A DNA stretch of 64,000 bases from an uncultured Verrucomicrobiae bacterium (GTDB lineage Bacteria; Verrucomicrobiota; Verrucomicrobiia; Chthoniobacterales; JAFAMB01): assembly GCA_963762565.1 (NCBI GenBank), contig CAVXLD010000001.1, forward strand, positions 576,001-640,000, in the 5' to 3' direction. The translations under genes were made by a program, and so were the position numbers. A model generated the notes under the pieces. That model was not told where the DNA came from. It worked only from the letters and a program-made list of their open reading frames with translations, and made no database searches. Numbering within the stretch: position 1 is the first letter of the stretch; each line of letters starts with the position of its first letter. Shown here in pieces: positions 23,247 through 39,824 of this stretch.

Positions 23247-23337
23247 ACCACAGAGACACGGAGGACACCGAGACAGATCTTCCAAATGGGTTAGATCTTG
23301 GGGTGTCCGATCTTTGCGCACTCTGTGTCTCTGTGGT
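23247..23337. repeat. Inverted repeat ACCACAGAGACAC / GTGTCTCTGTGGT
   Basis: 13-bp perfect arms in the intergenic region. Confidence 0.7.
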
Positions 23338-23354
23338 GAATTTTGGTTTTTCAA

Positions 23355-25781
23355 TCACTCGCGCAGGACTGTGACTGGGTTGACTCGGATGGCTCGCAGC
23401 GCTGGCAACAAGCATGCGAGTAGCGCAGCGAAAGAGAGCACGACGATGCTGGCGGCAATCGTGATTGGATCGTTACCGCTAACGCCATAGAGCAGACTTC
23501 CCAGGAATTGGCTCAAGACCGACGCAGTGAGTACACCGGCAACGACTCCTATCCCAACCATTTTGAAGCCCTGTTTCAGGACGAGGTTCACGATATGATG
23601 CCGCAAGGCGCCTACCGCAATTCGCACCCCAATTTCAGGAGTTTGGCGAGTCACTGAATAAGCCAAAACTCCGTACAAGCCGACGGCGGCCAAAAGTAAA
23701 GCAGTCCCGGAAAAGATGCTCACTACGAGCGCCACTAATTTTCGCATCGAAAGTGCCCGTGAAATGAAGTTAGAAAAAGTATCGACTCTTGCCAACGGCA
23801 CGTCAGGATCGATTGAGGCAACGGCTTGTCGCAAGGCCGGCAGTAATCCTGACGGATCTCCATCTGATCGTACGAGTAAGATTTCGTAATGAGTGAACTG
23901 CTGATAACAAGGGAAATAACCAGCGAACTTGCGCGAATGATTCGGGCCGCCGTGTCGCATGTCTTGTACAACACCGACGATCGTGTACCGCTTTTGCGAC
24001 ATGTAAGAACCGGGTACCTCGATCTGTTCGCCGATCGCGCTCTGGCCTGGGAAAAAGGTGCCGGCCAGTGCGTGATTAACTATGACTACCCCTTGGCTAT
24101 TGCGCGCGTCGCCTTCGTTGAAATCCCGCCCCTCAATTATCGGGGTCTCTACCGTATGAAAATACCCAGGCGAAATGTTTTGGGCGTTCAAAGTCGGTTC
24201 ATGACCGGGCTCAACTTGCGTCTGTTCAGGAACGATGAACGGGTCATACCCGCCGCCCTCCGAGTTAACAAAGGGCGGGTCGTCACTTAACGCTGCAGAC
24301 GTAACGCCCGGCACCTGCGACACTTTTTGTAAGACGGCTTTAAAGAAAGCGTCCGCTTGCGATTGTTCTTTATACTTCGCGTTCCCCAGGTTGATTTCGG
24401 CAGCAAGCAAGTAATCGGGATTGAACCCCAGCGGAATGCTCTGCGCTGCCTCGAAACTCCGAACCAGTAGCCCAGTACCAATTAGCAATACGCAAGCCAA
24501 TGCTACCTGGCTCATCATCATCACTGATTGCATTCGGCTGCGCTGCGGCCCGGCCGTGCGGTTTCGGCTGCCTGAACCCCTAAGCACCGCCGCTACCTCT
24601 GTCTTTGACGAAATAAAGGCCGGGAAGAGCCCCGATAAAAGAGCGGTCAGCGTAATAGCCCCGGCACAGAACAAAAGTGCTTGGGAACTAAGAGAAAGAT
24701 CAGAGACCCGGTTTAAGTCCGCAGGGCTGATCCGCTTTATCAATTGGATTGCCCCTACCGCTAAGGGTATCCCAACCCATCCGCCGGCCAGTGAAAGAAG
24801 TGCGCTCTCGAGGATTAAATGACTAATGAGGCGGAAGCGAGACGCTCCCATGGCGGCTCGAATGGTTAGATCGCGTTGTCGATCCGATGCTCTGGACACA
24901 AGTAGAGTTGCGACGTTTGTGCTCGAAAGCAGAAGCAGGAAAGCCGCTGCCGCGCCCAAAACCCAAAGAGTCGTCGCATAGTCAGATACCTCAGCTTGCA
25001 GAATGCTCTCCAGACGAACCCCGTTACCCTTGTCTTCTGGGTACCGAGCGGCCAGGTCATTGGTGATTATTTTAAGATCCGCCTCAGCCTGCGCCAGCGT
25101 GACGCCCTCCTTCAGCCGACCGAAACACGTAAAGACACCATAGTCACGGTTCCGCCACGCGTCCCAGCCAGAAATGACGTCAGCCGTATTCAGCGGCAAC
25201 AAAATTCTCGGAGGCTCGCTGTATTCGCTATAGAATGCTTTTATCACTCCGACGACCTCAAAGCCGACACCATTGAGAACAATGTTCTTGCCAAGGATAT
25301 TGGGATCGGCGTTAAATCGGCTCCTCCAGAGCGGTTCCGTGAGCACCGCTACGGCTGGTCCTCCGGGCTGATCCTCCTCGGCGGTAAATGGTCTCCCTAA
25401 AATGAACGGCAGGCCGTAAGCTTGAAACGCGCTTGCGGTATCAAATGCAGCCCTAACCTGTTCTGTTCTGCCGTCGGCACTCAGGTTGATCGAGTCCCAA
25501 TGTTCCAGCGCCAGCGTAACGAAAGAGTTCTGTGCCCGGCAGTAATCAAGAAAATCGGGATAGCCGAAGTACCCATAGTAGACGTTTTGAGCCGGGTTCG
25601 TCCTAATCACTTCTACTAACCTGTCCGGTTCTGGATACGGCAGAGGCTTCAGCAGCACAGCATCGATTAGACTAAAGATGGCTGTGTTCGCCCCGATACC
25701 GAACCCGAGCACCAGCACTGCGGTGATAGTGAACCCGGGTGATTTGAGCAGAAGTCGGAGCGTGTGGCGCAAGGCAGACAT
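23355..25781 (-). CDS. ADOP-like duplicated ABC permease, array 1
   Basis: Same motif set; 808 aa; close paralog of 25949-28387. Confidence 0.92.
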
Positions 25782-25948
25782 GGTGAAAGGTGAGAAGTGA
25801 AAGGTGAAAGGAAAGTAGTCAGTAGGTCAGTAATCAGTAACAGACAGGAGCTAGGAGTTAGCAGTCGTATTTCTTTGCGATCTTTGCACTCTTTCGCGGC
25901 TATTCCTTCTTGGCTATCGGCTATTGGCTATTGGTCATGCGCGCAGCG

Positions 25949-28387
25949 CTATTCGCGCAGTGCTGTTACAGGGTTAATTCGGATGGCACGTAGCGCCGGC
26001 AACAAGCACGCGAGTAACGCAGCGAAAGAGAGCACGACGATGCTGGCGGCAATCGTGATTGGATCGTTACCGCTAACGCCATAGAGCAGACTTCCCAGGA
26101 ATTGGCTCAAGACCGACGCAGTGAGTACACCGGCAACGACTCCTATCCCAACCATTTTGAAGCCCTGTTTCAGGACGAGGTTCACGATATGATGCCGCAA
26201 GGCGCCTACCGCAATTCGCACCCCAATCTCAGGAGTTTGCCGAGTGACTGAATAAGCCAAAACTCCGTACAAGCCCACGGCGGCCAAAAGTAACGCAGTC
26301 CCGGAGAAGATGCTCACTAAGAGCGCAGCTAATTGTCGCGTCGAAAATCGCTGCGAAATGAAGTTAGAGAAATTGTCGACTCTGGCCAACGGCACGTCAG
26401 GATCGATTGAAGCAACGGCTTGTCGTAAAGCCGGTAGTAATCCTGACGGATCTCGGGCTGATCGGACAAGTAAGATTTCGTAATGAGTAAACTGCTGATA
26501 AAAAGGAAAATAACCGCTGAACTTGGGCGAGTTATTTGGTCCGCCATGTCGCATGTCTTGTACAACACCGACGATCGTCAACCGCTTCTGTGCCATGTAA
26601 GAGCCGGGCAAATCTATTTGTTTGCCGATGGCACTCTGCCCGGGGAAAAAAATATCGGCCAGCCCGCGATTGACAATGACCACCCCTTGCTTATTGCGAG
26701 TGTCACCGTAATTAAAATCTCGTCCCTCCACGATCGAGGCTTTTAGCGTACGGAAATAGCCGGGTGAAATGTTTTGGCCGTTCAAAGTTGGTTCATGTCC
26801 GGGCTCAACCGGCGGCTGAGAAGGAACGATGAACGGCGAATATTCCCCGCCCTCCGAGTTAACAAAGGGTGGGTCATCGCTTAGCGCTGCCGCTGTCACG
26901 CCAGGCACCTGCGACACTTTTTCTAGGACGGATTTGAAGAAGGCGTCGGCTTGCGATTGTTCTTTATACTTCGCGTTCGCCAGGTTGATCTCCACAGCGA
27001 GCACGTTTTGGGGTTCGAACCCTAGCGGGATATTCTGCGCAGCCTCGAAGCTCCGGACGAGCAATCCAGTACCAATTAACAAGACGCAAGCAAGCGCTAC
27101 TTGTCCTGTCGTCATTATTGATTGTGTCCGGGTTCGCTGCGGGCCCGCAGTCCGGTTTCGGCTGCCGGCACTCCTTAGCACCGTCGCTACATCAGTCTTC
27201 GACGAGATAAAGGCCGGGAAGAGCCCGGATAGAAGAGCGGTAAGGCTAATAGCGCCGCCACAGAACAAAAGCGCTTGGGGACTAAGAGAAAGATCAGGGA
27301 CGCGAATTATATCTGCTGGGCTGATCAGTTTTATCAATTCGATCGCCGCTAACGCTATCGGTATCCCAACCAGTCCGCCCACGAGCGAAAGAAGCGTACT
27401 CTCGATGATTAAGTGACCAATCAAGCGGAAGCGAGAGGCTCCTATGGCAGCTCGAATGGTTAGGTCCCGTTGTCGATCCGATGCTCTGGCAACAATAAGA
27501 GTCGCTACGTTTGTGCTCGAAAGCAGAAGCAGGAAAGCGGCAGCGGCGCCCAAGACCCAAAGAGTCGACGCATAATCCGATACCTCGATTTGCTGGGCGC
27601 TCTCCACGTGAACGCCGTAGCCTTTATCTTCCGGGTATCGAGCAGCTAAGTTATCTGCGATTACCTTAAGATCCGCCTCAGCTTGCGCCGGTGTGACGCC
27701 CTCCTTCAGGCGCCCCCAACCCATCAGAAATCGGTTGTCACGAGCCCTCCACGTGTCCCAGCCTGCAATCACGTCAGCTGTATTTAACGGCACCAGAATT
27801 TTTACAGGTTCTCTGGACTCGGTCTCGAGTGCTTCTACCACTCCGATAACCTGAAAACCGGCGCCATTCAGAACGATATTTTTCCCAAGAATGTTGGGAT
27901 CGGCATTAAAGCGATTCCTCCAAAACGGTTCCGTCAGGACCGCGACCCGCGGGCCGCCCGGCTGGTCTTCCTCGGACGTAAACGGTCTCCCTAAAATGAA
28001 AGGGAGGCCATAAGCTTGAAATGCGCTTGCCGTAGCAAAGGCAGCCTTGACCTGTTCTGTTCTGCCTCCGGCACTCAGGCCAATCGAATCCCAATGTTCC
28101 AGCGCGAACGAAGCGAATGAGTGTTGCGCTCGGCAGAAATCAAGAAAATCAGGATAGTCAAAGCTCCCGTAATAGACGTTTTGTGCCGGGTTCGGCGTAA
28201 GCACTGTTACTAACCTGTCCGGCTCCGGATACGGCATGGGTCTCAGCAGCACGGTATCGATTAGACTAAAGATGGCAGTGTTTGCCCCGATACCGAACCC
28301 GAGCACGAGCACTGCGGTGATGGTGAAGCCGGGCGACTTTAGCAAAAGTCGGAGGCTGTAGCGCACAGATGCCAGGAAGCCGTGCAT
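25949..28387 (-). CDS. ADOP-like duplicated ABC permease, first gene of array 1
   Basis: Same motif set; start re-assigned to ATG 28387 ([21 protein letters not shown]). Confidence 0.9.
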   Translation of the reverse strand: MHGFLASVRYSLRLLLKSPGFTITAVLVLGFGIGANTAIFSLIDTVLLRPMPYPEPDRLVTVLTPNPAQNVYYGSFDYPDFLDFCRAQHSFASFALEHWDSIGLSAGGRTEQVKAAFATASAFQAYGLPFILGRPFTSEEDQPGGPRVAVLTEPFWRNRFNADPNILGKNIVLNGAGFQVIGVVEALETESREPVKILVPLNTADVIAGWDTWRARDNRFLMGWGRLKEGVTPAQAEADLKVIADNLAARYPEDKGYGVHVESAQQIEVSDYASTLWVLGAAAAFLLLLSSTNVATLIVARASDRQRDLTIRAAIGASRFRLIGHLIIESTLLSLVGGLVGIPIALAAIELIKLISPADIIRVPDLSLSPQALLFCGGAISLTALLSGLFPAFISSKTDVATVLRSAGSRNRTAGPQRTRTQSIMTTGQVALACVLLIGTGLLVRSFEAAQNIPLGFEPQNVLAVEINLANAKYKEQSQADAFFKSVLEKVSQVPGVTAAALSDDPPFVNSEGGEYSPFIVPSQPPVEPGHEPTLNGQNISPGYFRTLKASIVEGRDFNYGDTRNKQGVVIVNRGLADIFFPGQSAIGKQIDLPGSYMAQKRLTIVGVVQDMRHGGPNNSPKFSGYFPFYQQFTHYEILLVRSARDPSGLLPALRQAVASIDPDVPLARVDNFSNFISQRFSTRQLAALLVSIFSGTALLLAAVGLYGVLAYSVTRQTPEIGVRIAVGALRHHIVNLVLKQGFKMVGIGVVAGVLTASVLSQFLGSLLYGVSGNDPITIAASIVVLSFAALLACLLPALRAIRINPVTALRE

Positions 28388-28417
28388 AAGTTCCAGGGGG
28401 ATTCCGTGAAGTAGATG

Positions 28418-28432
28418 GCAGGTTACATGCCA
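28418..28432 (-). promoter_or_regulatory. Putative sigma-54 (-24/-12) promoter for ADOP array 1
   Basis: Minus strand TGGCATGTAACCTGC = GG-N10-GC, ~30 bp before ATG 28387. Confidence 0.65.
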
Positions 28433-28597
28433 GGTGGAGGGGGGAAGAGGTGATTGGTGATTGGTGATTGGTGGGAGCACCGCGTCAGGCCGAACTGTGG
28501 GTGGACGGTAACTAGGGATCAGTTCGGGGCTGGTGGTCGCCGTATAGCGGTTTGAAGGCAGGTGCGTGCCGCGCGGATGTCGGTTGTGTGGACAACC

Positions 28598-28669: not shown

Positions 28670-29275
28670 ATGCCAAGGTTTTTGCTGGGCATTGTCTTTC
28701 TGTTTATGGCCGTTAATTTCGATCCTGTTGTGCATGCCGAAGACAACCGTACAATCCCGAGTACTGGGGGAGAATATTTCGACCACCGCGTGGAAATTCC
28801 GGTACCGGCCTTTGCGCAGGATGATCCGCGGTGGAGCAATGTTCGGCTTGGGCCATCTACGGACACGCTGGGCGACCAGGGCTGCGCGGTGACCTCGGCC
28901 GCGATGGTCGTCGCTTTTTACGGGATCAAAACCGATCCGCAGCAGCTGAATAGTTTCCTTACAAAAGCAGGCGGACTCTCCGATGATGGACTTATTCAGT
29001 GGAGCCGGGTGCCGGCGATCGCGCCCTCCCATTTAGAATTGGCTTACAATGGCTACGCGGCGTACGACCTGATCGACTCGAATTTGCTGACAAAAAATCC
29101 CGTCATTGCGATCATCCATCTGCGGGACGGCGCTTATCATTTCGTTGTGATCGTGGGTAAGGAAGGCCGCAACTACTTGATCCGTGATCCGGCGGCTCCT
29201 GTTTTTCGCCGACCCTACCCGCTGTCCTACCTGACCGATCGGATTGACGGTATCTGCTTTTTTCGGACGATATAG
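28670..29275 (+). CDS. Exported C39-like cysteine peptidase
   Basis: Signal peptide, AQDDPRW..LG, GCAVTSAAMV (Cys), HFVVI (His), IRDP (Asp). Confidence 0.8.
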   Translation: MPRFLLGIVFLFMAVNFDPVVHAEDNRTIPSTGGEYFDHRVEIPVPAFAQDDPRWSNVRLGPSTDTLGDQGCAVTSAAMVVAFYGIKTDPQQLNSFLTKAGGLSDDGLIQWSRVPAIAPSHLELAYNGYAAYDLIDSNLLTKNPVIAIIHLRDGAYHFVVIVGKEGRNYLIRDPAAPVFRRPYPLSYLTDRIDGICFFRTI

Positions 29276-29289
29276 CGGGACTCGCCATA

Positions 29290-29397
29290 GGCGTTTGGCG
29301 TTTGGCGTTTGGCGTTTGCGTTTGGCGTTCGGCGTTCGGCGTTTGGCGTTTGGCGTTTGGCGTTCGGCGTCGGAAATAGCAAATCGCAAATAGCAGA
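29290..29397 (+). repeat. Heptamer tandem repeats (GGCGTTY) x ~12 followed by (AAATAGC) x ~3
   Basis: Read directly from the sequence. Confidence 0.9.
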
Positions 29398-29830
29398 TGC
29401 GTTCTGTACGCGATGAATGAATGGCGGTGCCGACACCTTTATGCATCGTCGCGCTCGGTAGGGGGCGATAAAAAAAGGGGTTTCGCCTGGAATAAAAGAG
29501 TTCCCAGGAATCTCGGAACAACGACAGATCCTTCTGCGCAGGATTCGCGCAAAATGCATCACATCCGGCTAGCGACGCAGTTTGCAGGTAAAGCAATTGT
29601 AATCCTCGCCGATACAATTTGACCTACCCCGCCGTCCAATGAACCAAGCAAATAGCACACAAAAAATGCTCCGCAACGCGGCGTTGTTACATCGGCTATC
29701 GGCTATTGGCTATCGGCTATTCGGAGCGAGCTTCAGGCGAGTCTCCGCGGTAAACCAAGGTGGAATAGCTCGTTTGTCGAAATACTGCCAACTTCCACGC
29801 GGCAAAGACCCGAAGATGAATACAAAATTT

Positions 29831-30006
29831 CACAACAAGGCATCAAAGGCCGCAGTGCAGCGAGACAGAGGATCCACAATACGGAAAGATCACAAAGGAC
29901 ACAAAGACTGAAACTGCAAATCGAATTCCTAAGTTCAGTCCTTGTGACCTTTCCGTATTGTGATCTCTGGTTCCGGTCTTCGGGAATTTTCTGCGAACTT
30001 GTTGTG
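29831..30006. repeat. Nested inverted-repeat element
   Basis: Outer CACAACAAG/CTTGTTGTG; inner CACAATACGGAAAGATCACAA..GACTGAA / TTCAGTC..TTGTGACCTTTCCGTATTGTG. Confidence 0.7.
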
Positions 30007-30127
30007 TCATTAGCTCACGATGAGGATGATGAGTCGCTTTCTTCGTTTCGTTGGATCCGAAAGTTTCGGCATGATCGCCTCTTCCTCAATTCATGATACC
30101 TTTAGCCCCCCAGGAGTCTTTTTCCCC

Positions 30128-30689
30128 ATGAACAAGCTAATATCCCTCCTCACTATCGGCGCCATCTTCGGCTGCATATCGCCGTCAATGGCGCAGCAGC
30201 ACAAGCGCATCAGCCCCCACGAAACTGTCAGCAAGGTTATTGACGGAAATCGGGTCATGGTTGTTTATGGCCGGCCTTACACCAAAGATCCGAAGAGCGG
30301 CCAAAATCGGAAAATCTGGGGTGAACTCGTTCCTTACGGCGAAGTCTGGCGCACCGGTGCTGACGAAGCCACACTCCTGATCACACAAAAACCGATTGTG
30401 ATGGGCAGTCCACGATTCCGGCCGGCGCTTACACCTTGTGGACTTTGCCAAATGAAGACGGCACCGCCAAACTGATCATCAATAAACAGATTGGCCAATG
30501 GGGAATAGGTCCCGGATCTTATGACGAGAAAGAGGATCTTGCGCGCGTTGATCTGAAGAAAGAAGCACTGGATGCGCCCGTCGATCAATTCACGATGGAG
30601 GTTTCCAAAAAATCGTCTGGTGTGGCGGCGTATTGAGAATGATGTGGGAGAAAACCGCGTTTTCAGTACCGTTCACCGTCCAGAAATAG
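30128..30689 (+). CDS. DUF2911 family exported protein (frameshifts near 30410 and 30620)
   Basis: Signal peptide, R.SP, V.YGRP, IWGELVPYGEVWRTGADEAT; continues in other frames as WTLP..LIINKQ.GQWG and MMWEKTAFSVPF. Confidence 0.8.
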
Positions 30690-30832
30690 CGCCGATCATT
30701 GGACGTGGCAGGATCGTGCCGATGACCGGATGCGTTCACCGGTTCAGTCCAGGGACTGCAGATCGATTCGTGTTGATTCGCTGGCCATTCGCAGTTGATG
30801 AATCAAGTCGTTTCGAATCTTTTATCAGTATC

Positions 30833-33389
30833 AATGTGTAGACTACCGCATCCACCGGTCAGTCTGGCCTGTGGAATTGCCATGCTCAGCCTGCCAATAG
30901 GCGGATTCTCGCAACCGGTTCCCGGGGCAGAGATTTTACGACAGTTGCGCGGCTTCCGCGAAATGGGCAGCGTGCTTTATATTGCGGCGCATCCCGATGA
31001 TGAAAACACAGAATTGATCACCTATTTCGCCCGGGGCAGAAATTATCGCACCGCCTATCTTTCGCTTACACGCGGCGATGGCGGACAAAATGTGCTCGGC
31101 CCCGAATTTGGCAGTGAGATCGGCGTGATTCGCACCCAGGAATTGCTCGCCGCTCGACGCATTGATGGCGGCCGGCAATTCTTTTCCCGGGCGGTTGATT
31201 TCGGTTTTTCCAAGGATTACCGCGAGACCTTGAGAATTTGGGATCGGCAAGAGGTATTGAGCGACATCGTGCGGGTCATCCGCCAGTTTCGACCCGACGT
31301 CCTGATCACGCGTTTTTCTCCCATTCCGGGCCGCACGCACGGACACCACACAGCGTCAACGGTGCTGGCCCTGGAAGCCTTTAAACTTGCCGGCGATCCG
31401 AAGGCTTTTCCAGAACAGGGACTGAAGCCGTGGCAACCAAAACGCATTGTTTGGAATGAATCAATTTATCAAAAGGATGATATCGGTGGAGCTCAACAAG
31501 TACGCATTGACGTCGGCGGCAAAGATCCGGTAACCGGGGAGCCATTCACGGTTCTCGCCGGCCGGAGCCGTTCCATGCACAAGACTCAAGGCTTTGGCAA
31601 CTTCGCCATTCCTGTCAGGCCGGGACCGAGATTTGAAACATTCCAACTTCTGGATGGCGCGCCGATGCAAATGATGTGCTCGACGGCGTTGATACTACTT
31701 GGGGCCGCGTACCTGGCGGCGCTGAAATTGGGAAATCGGTTGACGAAATTATTGCTCAATTCGATTCACAAAATCCGGCCGCAAGCGTGCCCGCATTATT
31801 AAAATTGCGGAGCGAACTGGCTGCATTGCCAATCGGCGATTCTGTGGTGACCGAAAAACGGGCTCAGCTTGACCGTATTTTGCAGGCTTGTCTCGGTCTG
31901 GAAGTGCAGACCACAATTTCAGCGGCCGAAGTAGTGCCAGGCGAAACGATGAAGCTGCATCACTCTGTGGTGATTCATTCCAGCATTCCAGTCCGTTGGG
32001 TCGCGGTACATTATCCTGCAATAAAACAGCAAATCGACCAAGGGAAGGACCCAAGTGTGTCCCGGCCCCCAGAATATTGAACTCCTCCCGAATCAATCCA
32101 GAACGTTGGACTCGACGCCAACCCTGCCCGCCGGCACGCCTTTAAGTCAGCCCTATTGGCTGCGCGAAGAAGGTACTGCAGGAATGTTCCGAGTTGATGA
32201 TCCTTCATTGATCGGTCGCCCGGAGAATCCGCGCCCTTTCCCCATCGAATACGTTTTCGAAGTTGGCGGCCAGACACTGGTCATTCCGGACGAGCCAGTG
32301 CAGATCACTACGAATTCCGAGAATAGTGAAGTTCACCGTCGCATGGAGGTGATTCCGCCGGTCTCGCTTGATTTTGCTTCTGACATTGCGCTGTTCGCTC
32401 CGGGAACATCTCATCCGGTTGAAGTTGAAATCGTCGCGTCTCGCGCGGATTCGAACGGCACTTTGCGATTGGAAGCGCCTCAAGGCTGGAAGGTTTCACC
32501 TGCCGAGCAATCATTCCATCTAAAGACCATCGGCGAACGGGCGCAGTTCACATTCACCATCACTGCCCCAGCGCAATCGGACACAGCCAAGATTATCGCC
32601 GATGCGGAAATCGGGAAGGCGCATTACCAACCGGCCGCATCGAAATCAATTACCCACATATCCCGCCAATTTTGCTTCAGCCGCTGGCCAGTTTGAAAGC
32701 CATCAGTCTCGAACTCGCAACTCGCGGTCACACGGTTGGCTATCTGCCGGGCGCAGGCGACAGCGTGGCTGAAAACCTGAAACAAATGGGTTATGCCGTC
32801 AGGACGTTTGGACGATACGAATCTCACGCCGGAAGAATTGCACGGGCTCGATGCCGTGGTGATTGGCGTTCGCGCTTTCAATGTCCGCAACAATATTGGG
32901 TCAGAATTGCCGGTGCTGTTTCGCTATGTCGAAAATGGCGGCACCATCGTTGCCCAATACAACCGGCCGGACGGGTTGAAAACGAACGAACTCGCGCCAT
33001 TTGAATTGCATCTGTCGGCCGATCGCGTCACAGACGAAACCGCGGCCGCCACATTTCTCGCCCCGGATAATCCGGTGTTGAACACACCGAACAAAATCAC
33101 CAGCGCGGATTTTGACGGTTGGGTGCAGGAGCGCGGAATTTATTTCCCGGACCAATGGGACGACCATTTCACGCCGATTCTCGCCTTCAATGATCCCGGC
33201 GAGTCGCCGCTCAAAGGCGGGCTCTTGGTCGCGCAATATGGCAAAGGTTATTTCGTTTATACCGGTCTGGTGTTTTTTCGGGAGCTTCCCGCCGGCGTGC
33301 CCGGAGCTTTCCGTTTATTTGCCAATCTGATTTCACTCGGCGTGGCCGACGAAGTGAAAGGCGGAGATGCGGCGAAGTCTGCCAAATGA
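30833..33389 (+). CDS. Large exported PIG-L/LmbE-family deacetylase with NEW3-like and C-terminal GATase-like domains (about four frameshifts)
   Basis: AAHPDDENT, TRGDGGQN, RTQELLAARRIDG, HGHH, SRSMHKTQGFG, GYLPGAGD, GWVQERG.YF, FFRELPAGVPGAFRLFANLIS across ORFs 30795/31676/32055/32672/32793. Start uncertain. Confidence 0.8.
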
Positions 33390-33527
33390 AACGTCCACAG
33401 TTGAACCTGAAAGTGACGAGACCGGCCTGCCGTGGTTGCGCACCTGGAAAGCGTCTATCTTTTGGTGATCATCCACTTCGTTCTTTGGATCGTTTTGCTG
33501 GTCGCCTTGACGGATTTCTTTTCATGA
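33386..33527 (+). CDS. Small single-TM protein preceding the symporter (frameshifted)
   Basis: DETGLPWLRTW then VYLLVIIHFVLWIVLLVALTDFFS*; the stop overlaps the symporter ATG (ATGA). Confidence 0.5.
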
Positions 33528-35237
33528 GCGCGCTGGATTTCGTTGTTCTCATCGGCTCGATGCTCGGCATCGCCGTCTATGGGATCTGGCGCACCCGAGG
33601 AAATCGCGGACTGAACACATACTTGAAGGGCGATAGCAAGACCGCGTGGTTCGCCATTGGTCTTTCGGTCATGGCCACTCAAGCCAGCGCCATCACTTTT
33701 CTATCGACCCCTGGGCAGGGATACCTGGGCGGACTTGGGTTTCGTGCAAATTTATTTCGGAATGCCGGTTGCCTTGATTATTATTGCCGCCGTTTTCCTG
33801 CCGATTTTTCGGCGGCTTAATGTTTATACCGCCTACGAATATCTTGGACGGCGTTTCGACACCAAAACCCGTCTGCTTGGGGCAGCTTTATTTCTTGTCC
33901 AACGCGGACTGGGCGCAGGGCTGACGATTTACGCGCCCTCGATTGTGCTCGCGACTGTCTTTGGCTGGCCGCTCGATTTGACGATTATCAGCAGCGGATT
34001 GGTCGTGATTATCTATACCGTGATGGGTGGGAGCAGCGCCGTCACCGTAACGCAAAAATATCAACTGGCCGTCATCTTCGCGGGCATGGTCACCGCATTT
34101 TGCCTGGTGGTGGCGAAGTTGCCCGCCGGGCTCTCCTTTACGGACACCTTTGCCCTGGCGGGTGGGTTTCAGAAACTCAACGCCGTGAATTTTTCAACCA
34201 ATGTTCATGAGCGCTATACATTTTGGTCGGGCTTGCTTGGTGGAACATTCCTGATGCTGGCGTATTTCGGCACTGATCAATCGCAGGTTCAGCGCTATCT
34301 TTCAGGCGCTTCTTTGCGCGAAGGCCGGCTTGGCCTCATGTTCAACGCCGTCTGCAAGATCCCGATGCAGTTCTTTATTCTGCTGCTCGGCGTGCTGATT
34401 TTTGTCTTTTATCAATTCGAACAACCGCCGTTGTTTTTCAATGCAGCCTTAAGCCATTATCTCGCGGAGCATCGCTCTGACGAACAGTTGCACGCTTATG
34501 AAACGGATTTCCATTCGCTCCACGATCAGGCAAACCAGCGGCTCAAAGAGTGGTTAAAAGCGAGACACGACGGCGACCGATCCGCAGCGGCTGCGGCATT
34601 CGCCGGCGCGCTGACCGCGCATCAACAGGGCGAGAAAATCCGCGAGGAGGCTGAGAAATCGTTGTCGCAGATAAGTTCCAGCACCACGGCGACCGACGCC
34701 GATTATGTGTTTATCACTTTTATCCTGCAACAATTGCCGCACGGTGTCATCGGTCTGCTGGTGGCGGCATTTTTCGCCGCTGCACTTTCCTCAAAGGCCG
34801 CCGAACTCAACGCGCTCGGTTCCAGCACCACCGTTGACTTTTATCGGCAAATCATCAAACGCGACGCAACGGATCAACACTGCTTGGTAGCCTCAAAATG
34901 GTTCACCGCATTTTGGGGACTGGTCGCAATTGCCTTCGCCCTCTACGCTCATCTGGTCGAGAATTTGATTCAGGCGGTGAACATTCTCGGCTCGATTTTT
35001 TACGGCGTGATGCTCGGTCTTTTTGTCGTGGCATTTTTCATACGGCACGTTGGCGGCACGGCCGTTTTTTGGTCGGCGCTGGTATCGCAGACACTCGTCT
35101 TTGTCCTCTACTTCACTCTCACCATTTCCTATCTCTGGTATCCGCTGATCGGCTGCGCCGCGTGCGTGATTTTAAGCATCATTCTGCAGAGCTTTTTTAA
35201 CGCCGTTGGAGAAACCGGTAAGAAAAGCAGGACATGA
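33524..35237 (+). CDS. Sodium:solute symporter (frameshift near 33735)
   Basis: SVMATQASAITFLSTPGQ, TAYEYL..RF, YFGTDQSQVQRYL, many TM segments. Confidence 0.88.
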
Positions 35238-36004
35238 CGGCTCCAATCATTTGTTTTGGCCAGCAGCCGTGCGGGTTTTTCCCGAAGCGTTTTCTATTTG
35301 CAAAAATTCAAACTGCGCGCCGGCTGCAAAGTGAAATCGGTGGTGAGATCGTTTTCTTCTTTCACGACAGTGATCATGATCCGCGCGAAACCAGAACCAT
35401 CCTGCGCCACCGTAAAACCAATGAGCCGGCGCAACTTAACTTTGCTTTTAAGAATAACATTCAGCGCAGATTTTCACCGCTTTATCTCAAAGAAATTCCC
35501 GACGGTTGGCAGGATAAAACCGCGCGACAATTGCCAAATTATATCCGCCCTGATCTGACGGCGGTTTTTAGAAGAGTATCTGCCGCGAATGTCGCGGACT
35601 TCTGCCTGGAGATGTATCGATCTCTGGGCTTGCTCGATAATATTCGCGTCGTGCGTTCGAGTACCCCGGATTTTCGCCAGGCGGCTTGTAACATCCCGGA
35701 TTTTTTTGTGGACGTTCCACACGAAGATGAAATTGTCCGTGCCCGTTTTATCGACGGCGCTTTGAAACTGCACAAAGGCGGAGGCTCATTCTTGACCCTG
35801 CCGCTGACGGCATTCACCAAGCAGCAAATCAGTCCAACCCGCGATACCCGGTTGCGCTGGATGCAGTCTGTGGTGAATTGCAGCCATTACATTGCCGGCG
35901 CGGGCGAAAAGGATTATCTTTGTCCGGAGGAAACTCCGGAAATCAATTTTATCAATCGAGACCCCATTGACCGATCCGATGAAGCCTACACTGAACTCCC
36001 CTAA
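35234..36004 (+). CDS. Short BshC-like protein (256 aa)
   Basis: GQQP.GFFP..F.KIQTA, VFFFHDSDHD and YIAGAGE resemble BshC GQQ / EDHD / YIGGPGE motifs; overlaps bshB1. Confidence 0.55.
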   Translation: MTAPIICFGQQPCGFFPKRFLFAKIQTARRLQSEIGGEIVFFFHDSDHDPRETRTILRHRKTNEPAQLNFAFKNNIQRRFSPLYLKEIPDGWQDKTARQLPNYIRPDLTAVFRRVSAANVADFCLEMYRSLGLLDNIRVVRSSTPDFRQAACNIPDFFVDVPHEDEIVRARFIDGALKLHKGGGSFLTLPLTAFTKQQISPTRDTRLRWMQSVVNCSHYIAGAGEKDYLCPEETPEINFINRDPIDRSDEAYTELP

Positions 36005-36714
36005 ACTTGCGCCATCACTGGCCTTTGGCGCGCACCCCGACGACATCGAATTTGGCTGTGGCGGTATCGCCGCCGCCGAAACGCAGGCCAGACGCCAGGT
36101 GCATTTTGTCGTTTGTTCGCGCGGCGAATCTGGAACGCATGGCACGCCGAGACAACGGATGGCTGAAGCAAAAAAATCCGCCGCCCTGCTCGGTGCGACG
36201 ATTGAATTCATCAAATTGGCCGGTGATGCGCACCTTGAAATTCGCGTTTCCTACACCATTCGATTGGCAGAAATCTTCCGGCGTATCCGTCCGGAAGTTG
36301 TGCTGGCGCCGAGCCCCGTCGAAAACCAGCATCCCGATCATGCCCGTCTGGGAAAATTAGTGCGGGATGCCGCGAGACTCGCCCGTTTCGGTGGTTTGCA
36401 GGAGTTGCGCGGTCAACCACCCCATGCCATCAAACAATTATTTTTTTATGCCATCACCCCAGAAGCTGAGCCGGCCAATATTACTCCGGTGCTGATTGAT
36501 GTTTCGGCGCCTGAAATTGTTGCTGCGTGGACCGCAGCCATGAAGGCGCATGCGTCGCAAATGCTCGACCCGCAATTACATCGATTTGCAACTCACCCGC
36601 GCCCGTTTGTTCGGTGCCCGCGCCGGAGTTGAGTATGCCATCGCTCTTTTTCCAAACGAGCCACTCGTCTTTGAGTCGCTAGCCCAGGCGGGACGAGGCG
36701 CGCGACGATTTTGA
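35979..36714 (+). CDS. bshB1: Bacillithiol biosynthesis deacetylase BshB1-like (frameshift near 36570)
   Basis: [36 protein letters not shown]; adjacent to bshA. Confidence 0.72.
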
Positions 36715-36715
36715 T

Positions 36716-37853
36716 ATGGATTCAGCCGGCGGCCGATTGAGAATCGGCATCACTTGTTATCCCTCGGTTGGCGGGAGCGGCATTCTTGCCTCGGCGCTAG
36801 GAGAAGAACTGGCCGATCGAGGGCATGAGGTGCATTTCATCAGCTACGAACGTCCGTTTCGCATGCAGCGGAAAGTCTCCCCGGATCTTTTTTCATCCGG
36901 TAGTGATCAACGATTACGGATTGTTCAAGTATCCCGATTATACTTTGCCGCTGTCGGTGAAAATGGCCGAAGTCAGTCGGGACTATCACCTCGACATTCT
37001 GCATGTTCATTACGCTGTGCCCCATGCCACGGCAGCGATTCTTGCGCGGTCGATGTTGCCTCCTGAGCAACAGCCCCGCGTGGTGACCACCTTGCATGGC
37101 ACTGACACTACATTGCTCGGTCGCGATCCCGGTTATCGTCCGGCCATCCACCACGCATTGACTCACTCAGACGCGGTCACGGTCGTTTCGGAGTTTCTGA
37201 GACGGGAGACGCAGCGAGTGCTCAGTTTTGACGGACCGATGGAAGTCATCCACAATTTTTTTGAACCGCAAGCACCCCTGCGTTCGCGCGAAGAAGTGCG
37301 GCAGGAACTCGGGTTGCGCGAAGAAGTGCTGCTGTTTCATTCCTCTAATCTGCGGCCCCTGAAACGAATCGATTTGCTGCTTGAAACCGTCGCGCGCATC
37401 CGCCCGCGCGAGTCGTGGAAACTCGTCATTCTAGCGGGCGGAGATTTTTCACCATATCGCAGCGAGGTGCGCCGGCTAGGATTGGAAGACCGAGTGATCG
37501 TGCGGGAAAACGTCAGACAGATTGAAGATTACTTGCAAGCTGCCGACATCGGATTGTTCACCTCCGAAACGGAGAGTTTTTGTTTGAGCATTCTCGAAGC
37601 GATGTGTTTTGCCTGCCCAAGTATCGCGCCACAGGTGGGAGGAATTCCCGAAGTTGTTCAGGACAACATAACCGGACTGCTCGTCCCGTTCGGTGATACC
37701 GAAAAAATGGCGCTTGCCGCCGAGGATCTCATTCAGAATCCGGCGCGGCGCAAGACGCTTGGCCGTGCCGCTCAGTTACGTGCCCGGAAGGAGTTTTCCG
37801 CAAGCGTCATCGTGCCTCGTTACGAAGCACTGTACCATCGACTCTGTGGTTAA
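36716..37853 (+). CDS. bshA: N-acetyl-alpha-D-glucosaminyl L-malate synthase BshA (frameshift near 36870)
   Basis: [60 protein letters not shown]. Confidence 0.88.
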
Positions 37854-37931
37854 TTACGTTTCTGTTGGCCGCGACTGCTAACTCGGATTGGCGCCCAAAA
37901 AGAGAAGTCACGTCTCATCTTGAGGCTTCCA

Positions 37932-38252
37932 CTACTCAACGACGTTCACCATCCCGGTCTGAATGTATGGCAGAGCTTGCAAAAGTTTAGGCATGAGCGG
38001 CCTGGTGTCGGCCAAGCGGTTGCTCGGTGCTCGCAGCACAATCACCTTTATTGGAGACGCGGCGAGATTCTGCTGGAAGGCGATGTTAGTGTCCATCGTC
38101 ACAAGAACCTCATAGCCGGATTCGCTAGCCTTTATAAGCAGTAGGCCATTCTGAACTCCGGCCCATCCTAGCCGCACAACCGACTCCACGTCATGCCCAA
38201 GCAATTCTCTGCCTAGCCGCCAATCCAGGTTTTCATCGAGTAAAATACGCAT
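37932..38252 (-). CDS. DUF5615 PIN-like toxin
   Basis: MRILLDENL, GWAG..NG.L, VLVTMD.NI.FQQN. Confidence 0.85.
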   Translation of the reverse strand: MRILLDENLDWRLGRELLGHDVESVVRLGWAGVQNGLLLIKASESGYEVLVTMDTNIAFQQNLAASPIKVIVLRAPSNRLADTRPLMPKLLQALPYIQTGMVNVVE

Positions 38253-38458
38253 CAGTCATGCGCCAGCGCATGCACCTTCGCTTCCTCGAGCAAAACGAGA
38301 ACCTGTTCCCGCTTTACGCTCGGAAAACCTTCGAGAAAATCTTCGATCGAATCTCCGGCTTCTAGATGGTCAAAGAAGCTTCTAATCGGCACCCTAGTCC
38401 CTGCGAAGACCGGTTCGCCGCCGAGAATATTCGGGTCACGCAAAACGACTTTAGCCAT
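38252..38458 (-). CDS. DUF433 antitoxin
   Basis: DPNILGGEPVFAGTRVP, G.SIEDFLEGFPSV; stop overlaps the toxin ATG. Confidence 0.88.
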   Translation of the reverse strand: MAKVVLRDPNILGGEPVFAGTRVPIRSFFDHLEAGDSIEDFLEGFPSVKREQVLVLLEEAKVHALAHD

Positions 38459-38571
38459 CAAGAGAACTTAGTGCGGCGGTCGGTCTTTTTCGAGTCTTAA
38501 CTCTAGAACCTGATTTTTGTTTGTTCCAAAGCCGATTATTGGCTGCCCAGGGTCCCAAATTGAAACGTTAC

Positions 38572-39438
38572 TCAAGGTGCAGCGATATCGACGAACGCCT
38601 TAACGAGGTCTGGCACTGCAGATTTCGCTAAACTCAGAAACAGATATGGCTCGATCAGTTCCAGCTCCATCAGAGTGAACTTTCCGCCAACAGCTACACC
38701 GTCGACGCGGGCAAACAGAAGCGGTCCCTCAATCGCGTTTACGACATTTTGTGCAGCCTCAATATGATCTGGAGGCGGTATGGCTAAATCGAAACTTCCT
38801 CCATGCTCTATTTGGGTCCGGAATTCGCCTGATTTCGGCCGCTTCAATACCGCATGGCTATATTTCTTGTTAAAGAACAAGAGAGACCATTCCCCTTCGG
38901 TTTCAACCACGTCGAGATACTCCTGGATCAGGCCCCCCGACACACGAAATATTCGATCGATCTGCTCCTGGTCGAGGTGCTCGCCTCCGACCAGTACAGT
39001 GCGGTGGCCGGATGCTGAGACCCTCGGTTTCACTACGGCGCGCTGCCAACCTTGACTTCGCAGTACCTCTCTTAGGTCGATGCGGTCGCCCTTCTCGACC
39101 CAAACCGTGGGCGGTACCTTAAAACCGTTTTCGTGAAGTTCGCGTAGATAAATTTTATCGATGTTCCAGCGAATTAAGTTTGGACGGTTCCAGATTGAGA
39201 GTCCGAGCTCTTCGATTTTGGTGAGCCATTGCAGAAAGGCTTCATGCCGATGTTGATAATCCCAGCAGGATCGGATCACGATCGAACTAAACCTCGACCA
39301 ATCGACTGAGCCGTCGGACCAAACCGCCGCCTCGGCGGTGAGGCCAAGGCGGGCGAGCTCACGCAAAAGAAGTTGATCGTCAGGGCTCAGATCAGGCAGT
39401 CGTTCAAATGTGACAATCGCCAGGCGATTCCTCGTCAT
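38572..39438 (-). CDS. RimK/glutathione-synthetase-like ATP-grasp protein
   Basis: IRSCWDY, WNIDK.YL, VVKP..SA, GEWSL, F.RVD, MELELIEPYLF. Confidence 0.8.
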   Translation of the reverse strand: MTRNRLAIVTFERLPDLSPDDQLLLRELARLGLTAEAAVWSDGSVDWSRFSSIVIRSCWDYQHRHEAFLQWLTKIEELGLSIWNRPNLIRWNIDKIYLRELHENGFKVPPTVWVEKGDRIDLREVLRSQGWQRAVVKPRVSASGHRTVLVGGEHLDQEQIDRIFRVSGGLIQEYLDVVETEGEWSLLFFNKKYSHAVLKRPKSGEFRTQIEHGGSFDLAIPPPDHIEAAQNVVNAIEGPLLFARVDGVAVGGKFTLMELELIEPYLFLSLAKSAVPDLVKAFVDIAAP

Positions 39439-39788: not shown

Positions 39789-39824
39789 TCTGTGATTACC
39801 AGACCAGTTTGGGGTCTAGGCTCC

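What the first reader, a model, noticed from the sequence alone, without database searches (positions are those of the whole stretch)
30128..37853. Bacillithiol-like genes joined to a DUF2911 / exported PIG-L / sodium symporter module
Seen: co-oriented DUF2911, large PIG-L, small TM protein, SSS, BshC-like, bshB1 and bshA, with overlapping or abutting stops/starts from PIG-L onward. Known: BshA/B/C make bacillithiol, and PIG-L enzymes include thiol-S-conjugate amidases (Mca/Bca). Inference: the poorly characterised PIG-L/SSS/DUF2911 module is an extracytoplasmic salvage route that hydrolyses conjugates and re-imports GlcN-malate or the thiol, in a lineage where I know of no established bacillithiol pathway.
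Basis: partly seen in the sequence, partly recalled or inferred. Interest (0 to 1): 0.7.

Follow-up and report, generated by a model that had tools for sequence, protein, structure and literature searches.

The report
Bacillithiol operon with mini-BshC, frameshifted copy
A soil Verrucomicrobium carries a widely conserved seven-gene cluster that joins bacillithiol-type thiol synthesis genes, including a half-size structural relative of the last enzyme BshC, to an exported hydrolase and a sodium symporter that would likely recover the thiol's sugar-malate core, but in this assembly six of the seven genes are interrupted by single-base indels that are probably sequencing errors.

Summary
Two things need correcting.

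- **Broken genes.** Six of the seven genes are not open in this sequence. Ten window-specific single-base indels break DUF2911, the large PIG-L, a 51-codon membrane peptide, the symporter, BshB and BshA. Only the 256-aa gene is intact. There are no in-frame stops in 2,491 corrected codons, dN/dS is 0.09-0.15, and relatives are intact, so I favour assembly error (about 0.7) over real decay.
- **"BshC-like".** No Pfam or NCBIfam model and no solved-structure sequence matches the 256-aa protein. Fold (PDB 4WBD, Z 20.2), profile-profile alignment (92%) and gene distribution do show a half-size BshC homologue.

In two lineage samples (201 and 101 genomes), the 19 genomes with the mini-BshC are exactly the 19 BshA genomes that lack canonical BshC. 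The one BshA genome with canonical BshC lacks the mini form.

The cluster order is kept in Verrucomicrobiota, Obscuribacterales and Melainabacteria, Armatimonadota and Acidobacteriota: 43 of 52 long-enough loci are complete.

The salvage reading (exported PIG-L frees GlcN-malate, the symporter re-imports it) remains inference. This scan has noted the same operon on eight other genomes. My four literature searches found no paper describing it.

The parts
30128..30686 (+). DUF2911 gene with a signal-peptide-like N-terminus. It is broken here by two single-base deletions (about 30406-30410 and 30620-30624).
   Evidence: In the window's ORF 30020-30475, Pfam PF11138 matches only profile positions 1-60 of 145 (57.4 bits). 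The intact G002 orthologue scores 141.6 bits over the whole profile. Indels. The end coordinate is derived from the G002 alignment.
30798..33389 (+). Large (~860 aa) exported PIG-L/LmbE-type hydrolase. It is broken here by four single-base indels (31667-31670 -1, 32059 +1, 32627-32629 -1, 32807 +1).
   Evidence: PF02585 56.9 bits, NPCBM_assoc 26.7 bits. The best NCBIfam hit is Mca at 59.6 bits against a cut-off of 277. Intact relatives have 837-874 aa. The AHPDDEN motif is invariant in 20 of 20 aligned sequences. Model pLDDT is 81; the PIG-L domain matches MshB, diacetylchitobiose deacetylase and BC1534. N-termini look like signal peptides.
33386..33527 (+). About 47-51-codon membrane peptide gene (conserved ETGLPW..TW..VY motif, then one hydrophobic helix). 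Here its frame is lost at a 13-nt gap (33399) and a single-base deletion (33449-33452).
   Evidence: Small ORFs of 45-60 codons with the same motif lie between PIG-L and the symporter in G002 and eight further loci read. tblastn finds it in 46 of 69 loci with room for it. Junctions were read.
33524..35237 (+). Sodium:solute symporter (SSS/SLC5 family, ~570 aa). It is broken here by a single-base insertion at 33742.
   Evidence: PF00474 and TIGR00813. The intact G002 orthologue scores 219.6 bits against a cut-off of 184. The nearest solved relatives are SMVT, SMCT1, NIS and chain 5nv9. Indel.
35234..36004 (+). 256-aa mini-BshC, a half-size homologue of the bacillithiol cysteine-adding enzyme. 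It is the only intact gene of the cluster in this window.
   Evidence: No Pfam, NCBIfam or PDB sequence hit. AF2 pLDDT 95.1. Foldseek top hit is 4WBD BshC, E 3.7e-9. VIA Z 20.2, rmsd 2.5 A, 238 residues aligned. hhalign against 18 canonical BshC gives 92.4%, E 5.3e-7. The distribution is complementary to canonical BshC.
35967..36714 (+). BshB1-like small PIG-L deacetylase. It is broken here by a single-base insertion at 36563-36567. The start codon is uncertain.
   Evidence: TIGR04001 is the best family at 125.8 bits, or 128.2 bits for the intact G002 orthologue; both are below the cut-off of 182.5. PF02585 84.5 bits. Indel.
36716..37853 (+). BshA (GT4 N-acetylglucosaminyl-L-malate synthase family). 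It is broken here by a single-base insertion at 36872-36878.
   Evidence: The C-terminal piece alone scores 322.5 bits on TIGR03999 and the N-terminal piece 66.8 bits. The intact G002 orthologue scores 401.7 bits against a cut-off of 273.7. Indel.

Best explanation
This is one copy of a conserved seven-gene operon (DUF2911, large exported PIG-L hydrolase, ~50-residue membrane peptide, sodium:solute symporter, 256-aa mini-BshC, BshB1-like deacetylase, BshA) that likely makes bacillithiol or a close analogue and would likely recover its glucosamine-malate core from outside the cytoplasm; in this assembly six of the seven genes are interrupted by single-base indels, which are probably consensus errors.

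Shown:
- Gene content, order and conservation across phyla.
- The structural and profile homology of the 256-aa protein to BshC.
- Its one-to-one co-occurrence with BshA wherever canonical BshC is missing.
- The ten window-only indels.

Inferred:
1. BshA makes GlcNAc-malate, the BshB-like enzyme deacetylates it, and the mini-BshC adds cysteine.
2. The exported PIG-L acts in the periplasm as an amidase or deacetylase on bacillithiol, its disulfide, its S-conjugates or GlcNAc-malate.
3. The symporter, probably with the small peptide as a partner, imports the carboxylated sugar product to feed the translationally coupled mini-BshC.
4. The indels are artefacts.

My odds for the separate steps:
- The operon is identified correctly: 0.95.
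- The 256-aa protein is a BshC homologue: 0.9.
- It is the cysteine ligase: 0.6.
- The exported module recycles or salvages the thiol core: 0.4.
- The indels are artefacts: 0.7.
For: **Identity of the genes.**. The BshA orthologue scores 401.7 bits against a cut-off of 273.7.

**Mini-BshC.**
- AF2 model pLDDT 95.1.
- BshC 4WBD is the top Foldseek hit (E 3.7e-9).
- It stands clear in VIA-align: Z 20.2, rmsd 2.5 A, 238 of 256 residues, against Z 14.6 for class I LysRS and about 10 for TyrRS.
- hhalign of 14 family members against 18 canonical BshC gives 92.4%, E 5.3e-7. It aligns the GQQ, DHD..E, SP..R..Q and G.GE..Y motifs, which are invariant or nearly so in both alignments.
- In the ESM Atlas, the next family after its own is PF10079 BshC at 0.91.

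**Distribution.**
- In 201 genomes of the phylum: BshA in 11, mini-BshC in 10, canonical BshC in 1. That one is the BshA genome without the mini form.
- In 101 genomes of the class of G229: mini-BshC in 9, BshA in the same 9, BshC in 0.
- No canonical BshC in G000 (best 11.7 bits).
- No GshB or GCS2 in G000, so this is the only thiol pathway I found with these models.

**Exported module.**
- The large PIG-L occurs in the same 10 of 201 genomes.
- Signal-like N-termini in 18 of 18.
- The AHPDDEN and HGHH motifs are invariant.
- The symporter's nearest solved relatives carry carboxylates or anions (SMVT 152.9, SMCT1 150.9, NIS 144.9, 5nv9 135.7 bits), ahead of the sugar carriers vSGLT (~100) and SGLT1/2 (64-74).
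- Natural variants keep one deacetylase. G016 has DUF2911, peptide, symporter, mini-BshC, BshB and BshA but no large PIG-L. G023 and six Obscuribacterales loci have the large PIG-L but no BshB in the cluster.

**Indels as artefacts.**
- All ten are single-base (net), with six deletions and four insertions.
- No in-frame stop in 2,491 corrected codons, and dN/dS of 0.09-0.15 against G002.
- Contigs of close relatives in four soil runs from three studies carry the intact state at each of eight sites in at least one run. Sites 31671, 36566 and 36872 are intact in all four runs.
Against: - No enzyme activity or metabolite is known for any gene of this cluster.
- G000 lacks the known bacillithiol redox helpers. 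The best YpdA/Bdr hit is 53.6 bits against a cut-off of 339.9, and there is no YtxJ/BrxC and no BrxA/B. How such a thiol would be kept reduced is open, and the product may differ.
- The BshB-like protein is below the BshB1 equivalog cut-off (128.2 against 182.5).
- The mini-BshC is missed by TIGR03998, Pfam and a single-sequence hhalign. It lacks the first ~85 residues and the C-terminal coiled-coil domain of BshC.
- The biochemical activity of canonical BshC itself has, as I recall, never been reconstituted in vitro.
- The symporter's substrate is only guessed from distant relatives.
- Clusters without BshB do have another small PIG-L elsewhere in 4 of 5 genomes checked, and in G023. The complementary-loss argument is therefore weak.
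- Against the artefact reading, the rest of the genome is clean. Of 125 G002 ORFs with an orthologue, only 3 outside the operon show frame switches. Nine flanking ORFs of 808-1044 aa in the window are open. An error process would have to be very local.
- At 33740, contigs of run X6 that cover the place do not show the intact state.
- Kin are not independent: 8 of the 9 other carriers in the phylum sample belong to one family. Four of the nine carriers in the second sample were genomes I already knew to hold the cluster.
Confidence: 0.5

Rival explanations
1. The operon is truly decayed in this organism. After a first inactivating hit the whole unit drifted and collected ten frameshifts, so this population no longer makes the thiol.
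For: - The breaks are tightly clustered: 10 in about 6.5 kb. Nine flanking ORFs of 808-1044 aa are open, and only 3 of about 120 other orthologous genes are broken.
- Another broken gene in the genome (an S9 peptidase at C5:365237-367068) also carries four switches, as dead genes do.
- The operon is dispensable in the order. BshA orthologues were found in only 7 of 30 relatives.
Against: - Every lesion is a single-base indel, with insertions nearly as common as deletions.
- There are no nonsense codons in 2,491 codons and no larger deletions, and dN/dS is 0.09-0.15. With ten neutral indels I would expect several stops. That expectation rests on my recollection of indel-to-substitution ratios.
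- No relative's contig is reported as sharing any of the eight indels listed.
- No other thiol pathway was found in G000.
- Among related loci, frame switches are commoner in records with 'MFD..contig_' names (2 of 7) than in the rest (2 of 73). I recall that naming style as typical of long-read assemblers; I did not test this.
Confidence: 0.3
2. The cytoplasmic half does not make bacillithiol itself. BshA and BshB would make GlcN-malate, and the mini-BshC would attach something other than cysteine or act on another acceptor, giving a different small molecule.
For: - The known bacillithiol redox partners are missing in G000.
- The BshB-like protein is below the BshB1 cut-off.
- The mini-BshC shares only 15% identity with 4WBD and lacks two BshC regions.
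Against: - BshA scores well above the equivalog cut-off.
- The conserved BshC motifs are kept.
- The mini form replaces canonical BshC one-for-one next to BshA.
Confidence: 0.2
3. The exported PIG-L, DUF2911 and the symporter are a general scavenging unit for environmental N-acetylated amino sugars, for example chitin- or cell-wall-derived. They sit beside the bsh genes only to supply precursors.
For: - The PIG-L domain resembles diacetylchitobiose deacetylases as closely as it resembles MshB.
- The middle of the protein is made of beta-sandwich domains of a kind common in carbohydrate-active enzymes.
Against: - The module is found with bsh genes in all 10 carriers among 201 genomes, and in 50 of 52 loci.
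- The symporter is translationally coupled to the mini-BshC.
- Its nearest solved relatives carry carboxylates or anions rather than neutral sugars.
- G016 keeps DUF2911, peptide and symporter with the bsh genes even without the large PIG-L.
Confidence: 0.15
4. The large PIG-L is the pathway's own deacetylase. GlcNAc-malate would be exported, deacetylated outside and re-imported, so the exported module is biosynthetic rather than a salvage route.
For: Six Obscuribacterales loci and G023 have the large PIG-L but no BshB in the cluster.
Against: - Four of five such genomes, and G023, hold another small PIG-L elsewhere.
- G016 lacks the large PIG-L yet keeps BshB.
- An export-and-reimport loop for an intermediate is costly, and no exporter is in the cluster.
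Confidence: 0.1

Closest known systems
Bacillithiol biosynthesis BshA / BshB1 / BshC of Bacillus subtilis (TIGR03999, TIGR04001, TIGR03998; BshC structure PDB 4WBD)
   Same: - BshA meets the equivalog cut-off.
- A small PIG-L deacetylase with BshB1 as its best family lies next to it.
- A protein with the BshC Rossmann-like core fold and the conserved BshC motifs lies in the same operon.
   Different: - The BshC counterpart has 256 instead of about 520-570 residues. It lacks the N-terminal ~85 residues and the coiled-coil domain PF24850, and no BshC sequence model detects it.
- The BshB-like protein is below the cut-off.
- The genes are fused into one operon with four envelope genes.
- The YpdA/Brx helpers were not found in G000.
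Thiol-conjugate amidases and deacetylases of the PIG-L/LmbE family (Mca, MshB, Bca/BshB2, BC1534) and diacetylchitobiose deacetylase
   Same: The N-terminal domain of the large protein has the PIG-L fold and the AHPDD zinc-site motif. Mca is its best NCBIfam hit, and MshB is its best PDB hit by sequence and by fold.
   Different: - It is three to four times larger.
- It has a signal-like N-terminus, tandem beta-sandwich domains and a C-terminal alpha/beta domain.
- Its scores are far below every equivalog cut-off (55-60 bits against 277).
- All the known enzymes are cytoplasmic, as I recall.
Periplasmic glutathione turnover by gamma-glutamyltranspeptidase followed by re-import of the pieces (recalled from textbook knowledge of E. 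coli)
   Same: It works like this in outline: an exported hydrolase next to an importer, tied to the synthesis genes of a low-molecular-weight thiol.
   Different: The protein families are unrelated. No step is demonstrated here, so this is an analogy, not a membership.
SLC5/SSS transporters for carboxylated substrates (SMVT, SMCT1, NIS, chain 5nv9, which I recall as the sialic-acid carrier SiaT)
   Same: They are the best solved relatives of the symporter by sequence, at 136-153 bits over the first ~300 residues.
   Different: Only the N-terminal half aligns well. The partner micropeptide and the genomic context differ, and the substrate is unknown.

Membership tests
BshA (TIGR03999 equivalog) | Whole-protein score above the curated cut-off of 273.7 bits | tested here: met
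   The window's C-terminal piece scores 322.5 bits and its N-terminal piece 66.8 bits. The intact G002 orthologue scores 401.7 bits.
BshA (TIGR03999 equivalog) | One uninterrupted reading frame in this window | tested here: not met
   The gene is split into 36716-37066 and 36825-37853 by a +1 insertion at 36872-36878.
BshA (TIGR03999 equivalog) | Transfers GlcNAc from UDP-GlcNAc to L-malate | not testable with these tools
   This needs an enzyme assay.
BshB1 (TIGR04001 equivalog) | Score above the curated cut-off of 182.5 bits | tested here: not met
   The window copy scores 125.8 bits and the intact G002 orthologue 128.2 bits. It is still the best-scoring family.
BshB1 (TIGR04001 equivalog) | PIG-L domain with the AHPDD motif | tested here: met
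   PF02585 scores 84.5 bits. AHPDDIEFG can be read in the translation.
BshC (TIGR03998; Pfam PF10079 + PF24850) | Match to the family's sequence models | tested here: not met
   No Pfam hit even at E 10. TIGR03998 does not hit the gene in G000 at E 10. phmmer against PDB finds nothing related.
BshC (TIGR03998; Pfam PF10079 + PF24850) | BshC Rossmann-like core fold | tested here: met
   4WBD is the top hit: Foldseek E 3.7e-9 and VIA Z 20.2, rmsd 2.5 A, 238 residues aligned. The next entry is at Z 14.6.
BshC (TIGR03998; Pfam PF10079 + PF24850) | Conserved motifs GQQ, DHD..E, SP..R..Q and G.GE..Y | tested here: met
   hhalign (92.4%, E 5.3e-7) aligns these motifs, which are invariant or nearly invariant in both alignments.
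BshC (TIGR03998; Pfam PF10079 + PF24850) | Full length of about 520-570 aa with the C-terminal coiled-coil domain | tested here: not met
   The family is 250-290 aa long throughout. Nearly all of the 120 canonical BshC hits listed carry PF24850; a few carry PF10079 only.
BshC (TIGR03998; Pfam PF10079 + PF24850) | Occurs with BshA, as the cysteine-adding step would | tested here: met
   19 of 19 genomes with the mini form have BshA and no canonical BshC. The one BshA genome with canonical BshC lacks the mini form.
BshC (TIGR03998; Pfam PF10079 + PF24850) | Adds cysteine to GlcN-malate | not testable with these tools
   This needs genetics or an enzyme assay.
Mca/Bca-type thiol-conjugate amidase | Equivalog-level similarity to Mca (TIGR03446, cut-off 277.15) or BshB2 (TIGR04000, cut-off 195.25) | tested here: not met
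   The large PIG-L scores 55-60 bits on Mca and 20-22 bits on BshB2.
PIG-L/LmbE superfamily (PF02585) | Domain match above the gathering score, with the zinc-site motif | tested here: met
   The window copy scores 56.9 bits and the G002 orthologue 53.1 bits against a cut-off of 28.2. H63, P64, D65, D66, H179 and H182 are invariant in 20 sequences.
Sodium:solute symporter family (TIGR00813 / PF00474) | Score above the cut-off | tested here: met
   The G002 orthologue scores 219.6 bits against a cut-off of 184. The window's larger piece scores 180.2 bits, just under, because the frame is broken.
DUF2911 (PF11138) | Full-length domain match | tested here: met
   The G002 orthologue scores 141.6 bits over profile positions 1-145. 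In the window only positions 1-60 stay in frame.
Pseudogene (true decay) | Lesions supported by reads of the same population, with mixed lesion types | tested here: inconclusive
   No run holds the same strain; the best share of sampled words is 0.13. The lesions are all single-base indels with no stop codons.

The most novel reading that the evidence does not exclude
Verrucomicrobiota, the non-photosynthetic cyanobacterial relatives (Obscuribacterales and Melainabacteria), Armatimonadota and some Acidobacteriota make bacillithiol with a half-size BshC that annotation and published surveys miss. They also run a periplasmic turnover-and-reuptake cycle for it, the bacillithiol counterpart of the gamma-glutamyl cycle of glutathione. 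This would give these lineages their missing redox thiol and give the field a compact BshC that may be easier to study than the long form.
Probability: 0.3. Interest if true: 0.8.

Novelty: new variant of a known kind. Interest (0 to 1): 0.6.

Why it matters
**A gap in the thiol map.** Hiras et al. 2018 (PMC6282198, passages read) list Verrucomicrobia among major lineages with no documented or predicted low-molecular-weight thiol. The 2025 survey in PMC12719100 (passages read) required a full-length BshC, with similar length and over 80% coverage. It would therefore not count these genomes.

**What the mini-BshC would add.** A 256-residue BshC that always travels with BshA would extend bacillithiol-type chemistry to several poorly studied soil and freshwater phyla. 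It would also offer a minimal scaffold for working out the cysteine-adding reaction.

**What the exported module would add.** If the exported PIG-L, membrane peptide, symporter and DUF2911 act on bacillithiol-derived compounds, they would be the first extracytoplasmic branch of bacillithiol metabolism.

**This window specifically.** The practical lesson is a caution. The copy is unreadable as deposited, and gene callers will report fragments.

Tried and rejected
- **Plain sequence searches for BshC.** Pfam at E 10, NCBIfam, phmmer against PDB, TIGR03998 over the genome and hhalign against a single BshC sequence (probability 0.2%) all failed to link the 256-aa protein to BshC. Only the profile-profile and fold comparisons did.
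- **My first reading of the 'small TM protein'.** I took it for the severed N-terminus of the symporter and dropped that after finding the conserved 51-codon gene.
- **Raw gap counts.** Counting non-multiple-of-3 gaps in blastn alignments with G002 gave about 2 per kb everywhere, because of compensating alignment gaps. It was useless as a control, so I replaced it with frame switches between tblastn pieces.
- **Promoter and terminator scan of 29200-38600.** It found 4 promoter-like sites (shuffles 5.8 ± 2.5) and 19 terminator-like sites (12.9 ± 4.0). Nothing usable.
- **Public runs.** No run holds half of the sampled words; the best share is 0.13. The indels could therefore not be checked against reads of the same strain. 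What was laid are contigs of relatives 90-99% alike.
- **DUF2911.** It has no solved relative by sequence.
- **Large PIG-L fold search.** The Foldseek list is filled by the PIG-L and beta-sandwich domains, so the C-terminal alpha/beta domain (about 634-837 of the model) remains unassigned.
- **The idea that clusters without BshB lack any small deacetylase.** This did not hold. Four of five such genomes, and G023, have another PIG-L gene elsewhere.
- **The search of earlier findings by sequence** found nothing. The search by words did.

Full report
**What is in the window**

The stretch 30128-37853 lies in a 6.1-Mb, 15-contig genome (93.7% complete). Names attached to near-identical proteins place it in Verrucomicrobiota, Chthoniobacterales.

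On the + strand, Pfam and NCBIfam find in this order:
- DUF2911
- a PIG-L domain protein with an NPCBM_assoc/NEW3 domain
- a sodium:solute symporter
- a 256-aa protein with no family
- a small PIG-L protein whose best family is BshB1
- a GT4 glycosyltransferase that passes the BshA equivalog cut-off

The flanks are unrelated: MacB/FtsX-type permeases, a C39-like peptidase and a DUF5615/DUF433 pair.

**The copy is frameshifted**

The ORF list shows fragments rather than genes. I aligned the DNA with a same-genus genome (G002, 83% identical) and with three further relatives (L049, L050, L053). This shows ten frame-breaking differences that only the window has:
- two in DUF2911
- four in the large PIG-L
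- one in a small gene between PIG-L and the symporter, plus a 13-nt gap in that gene's variable start
- one each in the symporter, BshB and BshA

The 256-aa gene has none. G002 has open frames of 874, 582, 256, 248 and 382 aa for the same genes.

The breaks are local:
- Nine flanking ORFs of 808-1044 aa in the window are open.
- I took 182 ORFs of at least 250 aa from 22 stretches of G002. Of these, 125 had a match of at least 70% identity in G000, and seven of the 125 showed frame switches. Four are operon genes. One is a TIR-kinase gene at about 48,280 in this window. Two lie elsewhere: an S9 peptidase with four switches and a beta-lactamase-family gene with one.

After frame correction there is no stop codon in 2,491 codons. 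dN/dS against G002 is 0.09-0.15 for all six genes compared.

I laid contigs from four soil metagenome runs (three studies, 90-99% alike). They carry the intact state at eight of the sites in at least one run:
- 31671, 36566 and 36872 in all four runs
- 30408 and 33740 in three runs
- 32629 in two runs
- 32059 and 32811 in one run

At 33740, the contigs of run X6 that cover the place do not show it. No run holds the same strain; the best share of sampled words is 0.13.

Among 80 related loci, four have frame switches in operon genes. Two of these are among seven records with 'MFD..contig_' names, and one of those two has five switches. The other two are among the remaining 73.

The spectrum is purely single-base, mixes insertions and deletions, has no nonsense codons, and sits on otherwise constrained sequence. 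That reads to me as local consensus error (about 0.7) rather than decay (about 0.3). I cannot settle it.

**The 256-aa protein is a half-size BshC**

- It belongs to a compact family. There are 6,911 hits at 90% clustering (the 120 best listed are 254-257 aa) but only 239 representatives at 50% clustering. All named ones are called hypothetical.
- Sequence models do not connect it to BshC.
- A 14-sequence alignment gave an AlphaFold model with pLDDT 95.1.
- BshC of B. subtilis (4WBD) is the best Foldseek match (E 3.7e-9). In VIA-align it stands clear of the class I aminoacyl-tRNA synthetases that follow: Z 20.2, rmsd 2.5 A, 238 residues, chain range 82-520, with the next entry at Z 14.6.
- I built a profile of 18 canonical BshC proteins, found starting from the one BshC in the phylum sample. 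It aligns to the family profile with 92.4% probability (E 5.3e-7, 219 columns). The GQQ, DHD..E, SP..R..Q and G.GE..Y motifs are in register.
- The ESM Atlas lists PF10079 BshC clusters right after the protein's own family, at 0.91.
- The short form lacks the first ~85 residues and the coiled-coil domain PF24850 of BshC.

**Distribution**

| Sample | Genomes | BshA | Mini-BshC | Canonical BshC |
|---|---|---|---|---|
| Phylum of the window | 201 | 11 | 10 | 1 |
| Class of G229 | 101 | 9 | 9 (same genomes) | 0 |

- In the phylum sample, the ten mini-BshC genomes are ten of the eleven BshA genomes, with the two genes adjacent. The single canonical BshC is in the eleventh BshA genome.
- The class of G229 is a Melainabacteria genome reached through locus L096. 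Four of its nine carriers were already known to me, and five were new.
- Kinship inflates these counts. Eight of the nine other carriers in the phylum sample belong to one family.
- G000 has no canonical BshC, and no GshB or GCS2.

**The envelope half**

- The large PIG-L is in the same ten of 201 genomes. It lies next to the bsh genes in nine, G000 among them, and far from them in G208.
- A scan of one genome per species found 150 relatives, and I kept the best 80. By record title, 37 are Verrucomicrobiota, 36 are Cyanobacteria, Melainabacteria or Obscuribacterales, 4 are Armatimonadota, 2 are Acidobacteriota and 1 is labelled Proteobacteria.
- Of 52 loci with at least 5.6 kb downstream, 43 have symporter, mini-BshC, BshB and BshA. 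Six lack BshB. Two lack a full BshA hit, one of which is cut by the locus end. One has a fragmentary symporter. DUF2911 lies upstream in 77 of 77.
- A ~51-codon gene with an ETGLPW..TW motif and one hydrophobic helix sits between PIG-L and the symporter.
- I tried 19 homologues of the large PIG-L. One was read in the wrong frame. The other 18 all begin with a basic stretch and a hydrophobic segment 40-72 residues before the AHPDD motif. Two carry SRRDLL. I judged this by hydropathy and by eye; no signal-peptide predictor was available.
- The model (pLDDT 81) shows a disordered N-terminus, a PIG-L domain, a helical linker, tandem beta-sandwiches and a C-terminal alpha/beta domain. The PIG-L domain matches MshB, diacetylchitobiose deacetylase, LnmX and BC1534.
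- The symporter's nearest solved relatives are SMVT, SMCT1, NIS and 5nv9, ahead of the glucose carriers.
- Variants exist. G016 keeps everything except the large PIG-L. G023 keeps everything except BshB. Genomes without a BshB in the cluster mostly have another small PIG-L elsewhere.

**How it most likely works**

- *Cytoplasmic steps (inferred from family membership and context).* BshA makes GlcNAc-malate, the BshB-like enzyme removes the acetyl group, and the mini-BshC adds cysteine.
- *Envelope steps (inferred from location, family and linkage only).* The exported PIG-L would cleave or deacetylate a bacillithiol-derived compound in the periplasm. The symporter, perhaps with the small peptide, would bring the GlcN-malate core back to the mini-BshC, whose start codon overlaps the symporter's stop.
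- *What this does not explain.* I cannot assign a role to DUF2911. G000 also lacks the YpdA/Bdr, YtxJ and BrxA/B proteins that serve bacillithiol in Firmicutes.

**Literature**

- Four full-text searches found no paper that links bacillithiol to these lineages, describes a short BshC, or describes this module. The library omits most subscription journals.
- I read passages of PMC6282198, PMC12719100 and PMC9324843 (not relevant).
- I did not see the supplementary datasets of PMC12719100. They might list some of these genomes.

**Earlier notes of this scan**

A word search returned eight earlier findings of the same operon on other genomes, with the same reading. One of them also reports a copy peppered with single-base insertions. 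The tests reported above are my own.

**Verdict**

- 'BshC-like' is right at the level of fold and profile.
- The linkage of the envelope module to the bsh genes is strong.
- The salvage mechanism is plausible and untested.

Noticed in passing
window 47716-50977 (- strand): A ~1,090-aa TIR plus Ser/Thr-kinase gene is split by a frame switch near 48,280. In G002 the orthologue is one 1,096-aa frame and lies directly beside bshA. Here it lies 10 kb further downstream.
   Followed up: partly
window 29290-29370: A heptamer tandem repeat GGCGTTT (11.7 copies, 93% matches) lies in the spacer upstream of the operon. Shorter 7-nt arrays lie at 28449-28473, 29374-29395 and 29691-29720. On the opposite strand it produces a spurious ORF with a repeated RQTPNAKR peptide.
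   Followed up: no
window 16551-28480 and 39792-42293, 52103-54610, 60103-62562: There are many paralogous ~810-840-aa MacB_PCD/FtsX duplicated permease genes. Several lie in tandem on the - strand, and all are open.
   Followed up: no
window 37932-38461 (- strand): A DUF5615 (106 aa) and DUF433 (69 aa) pair lies directly downstream of bshA. It has the layout of a toxin-antitoxin module.
   Followed up: no
G000:C5:365237-367068: An S9 prolyl-oligopeptidase-family gene carries four frame switches within 2 kb. It is a second local patch of breaks in an otherwise clean genome.
   Followed up: partly
L073 (7928-12240) and L058 (12525-14220): Two related records with 'MFD..contig_' names also have frame switches in the same operon: five in L073 and one in L058.
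   Followed up: partly
L102 and L104, N-termini of the large PIG-L: The Armatimonadota copies carry an SRRDLL twin-arginine-like motif instead of the Sec-like leader seen elsewhere. This hints at export of the folded, metal-loaded enzyme.
   Followed up: no
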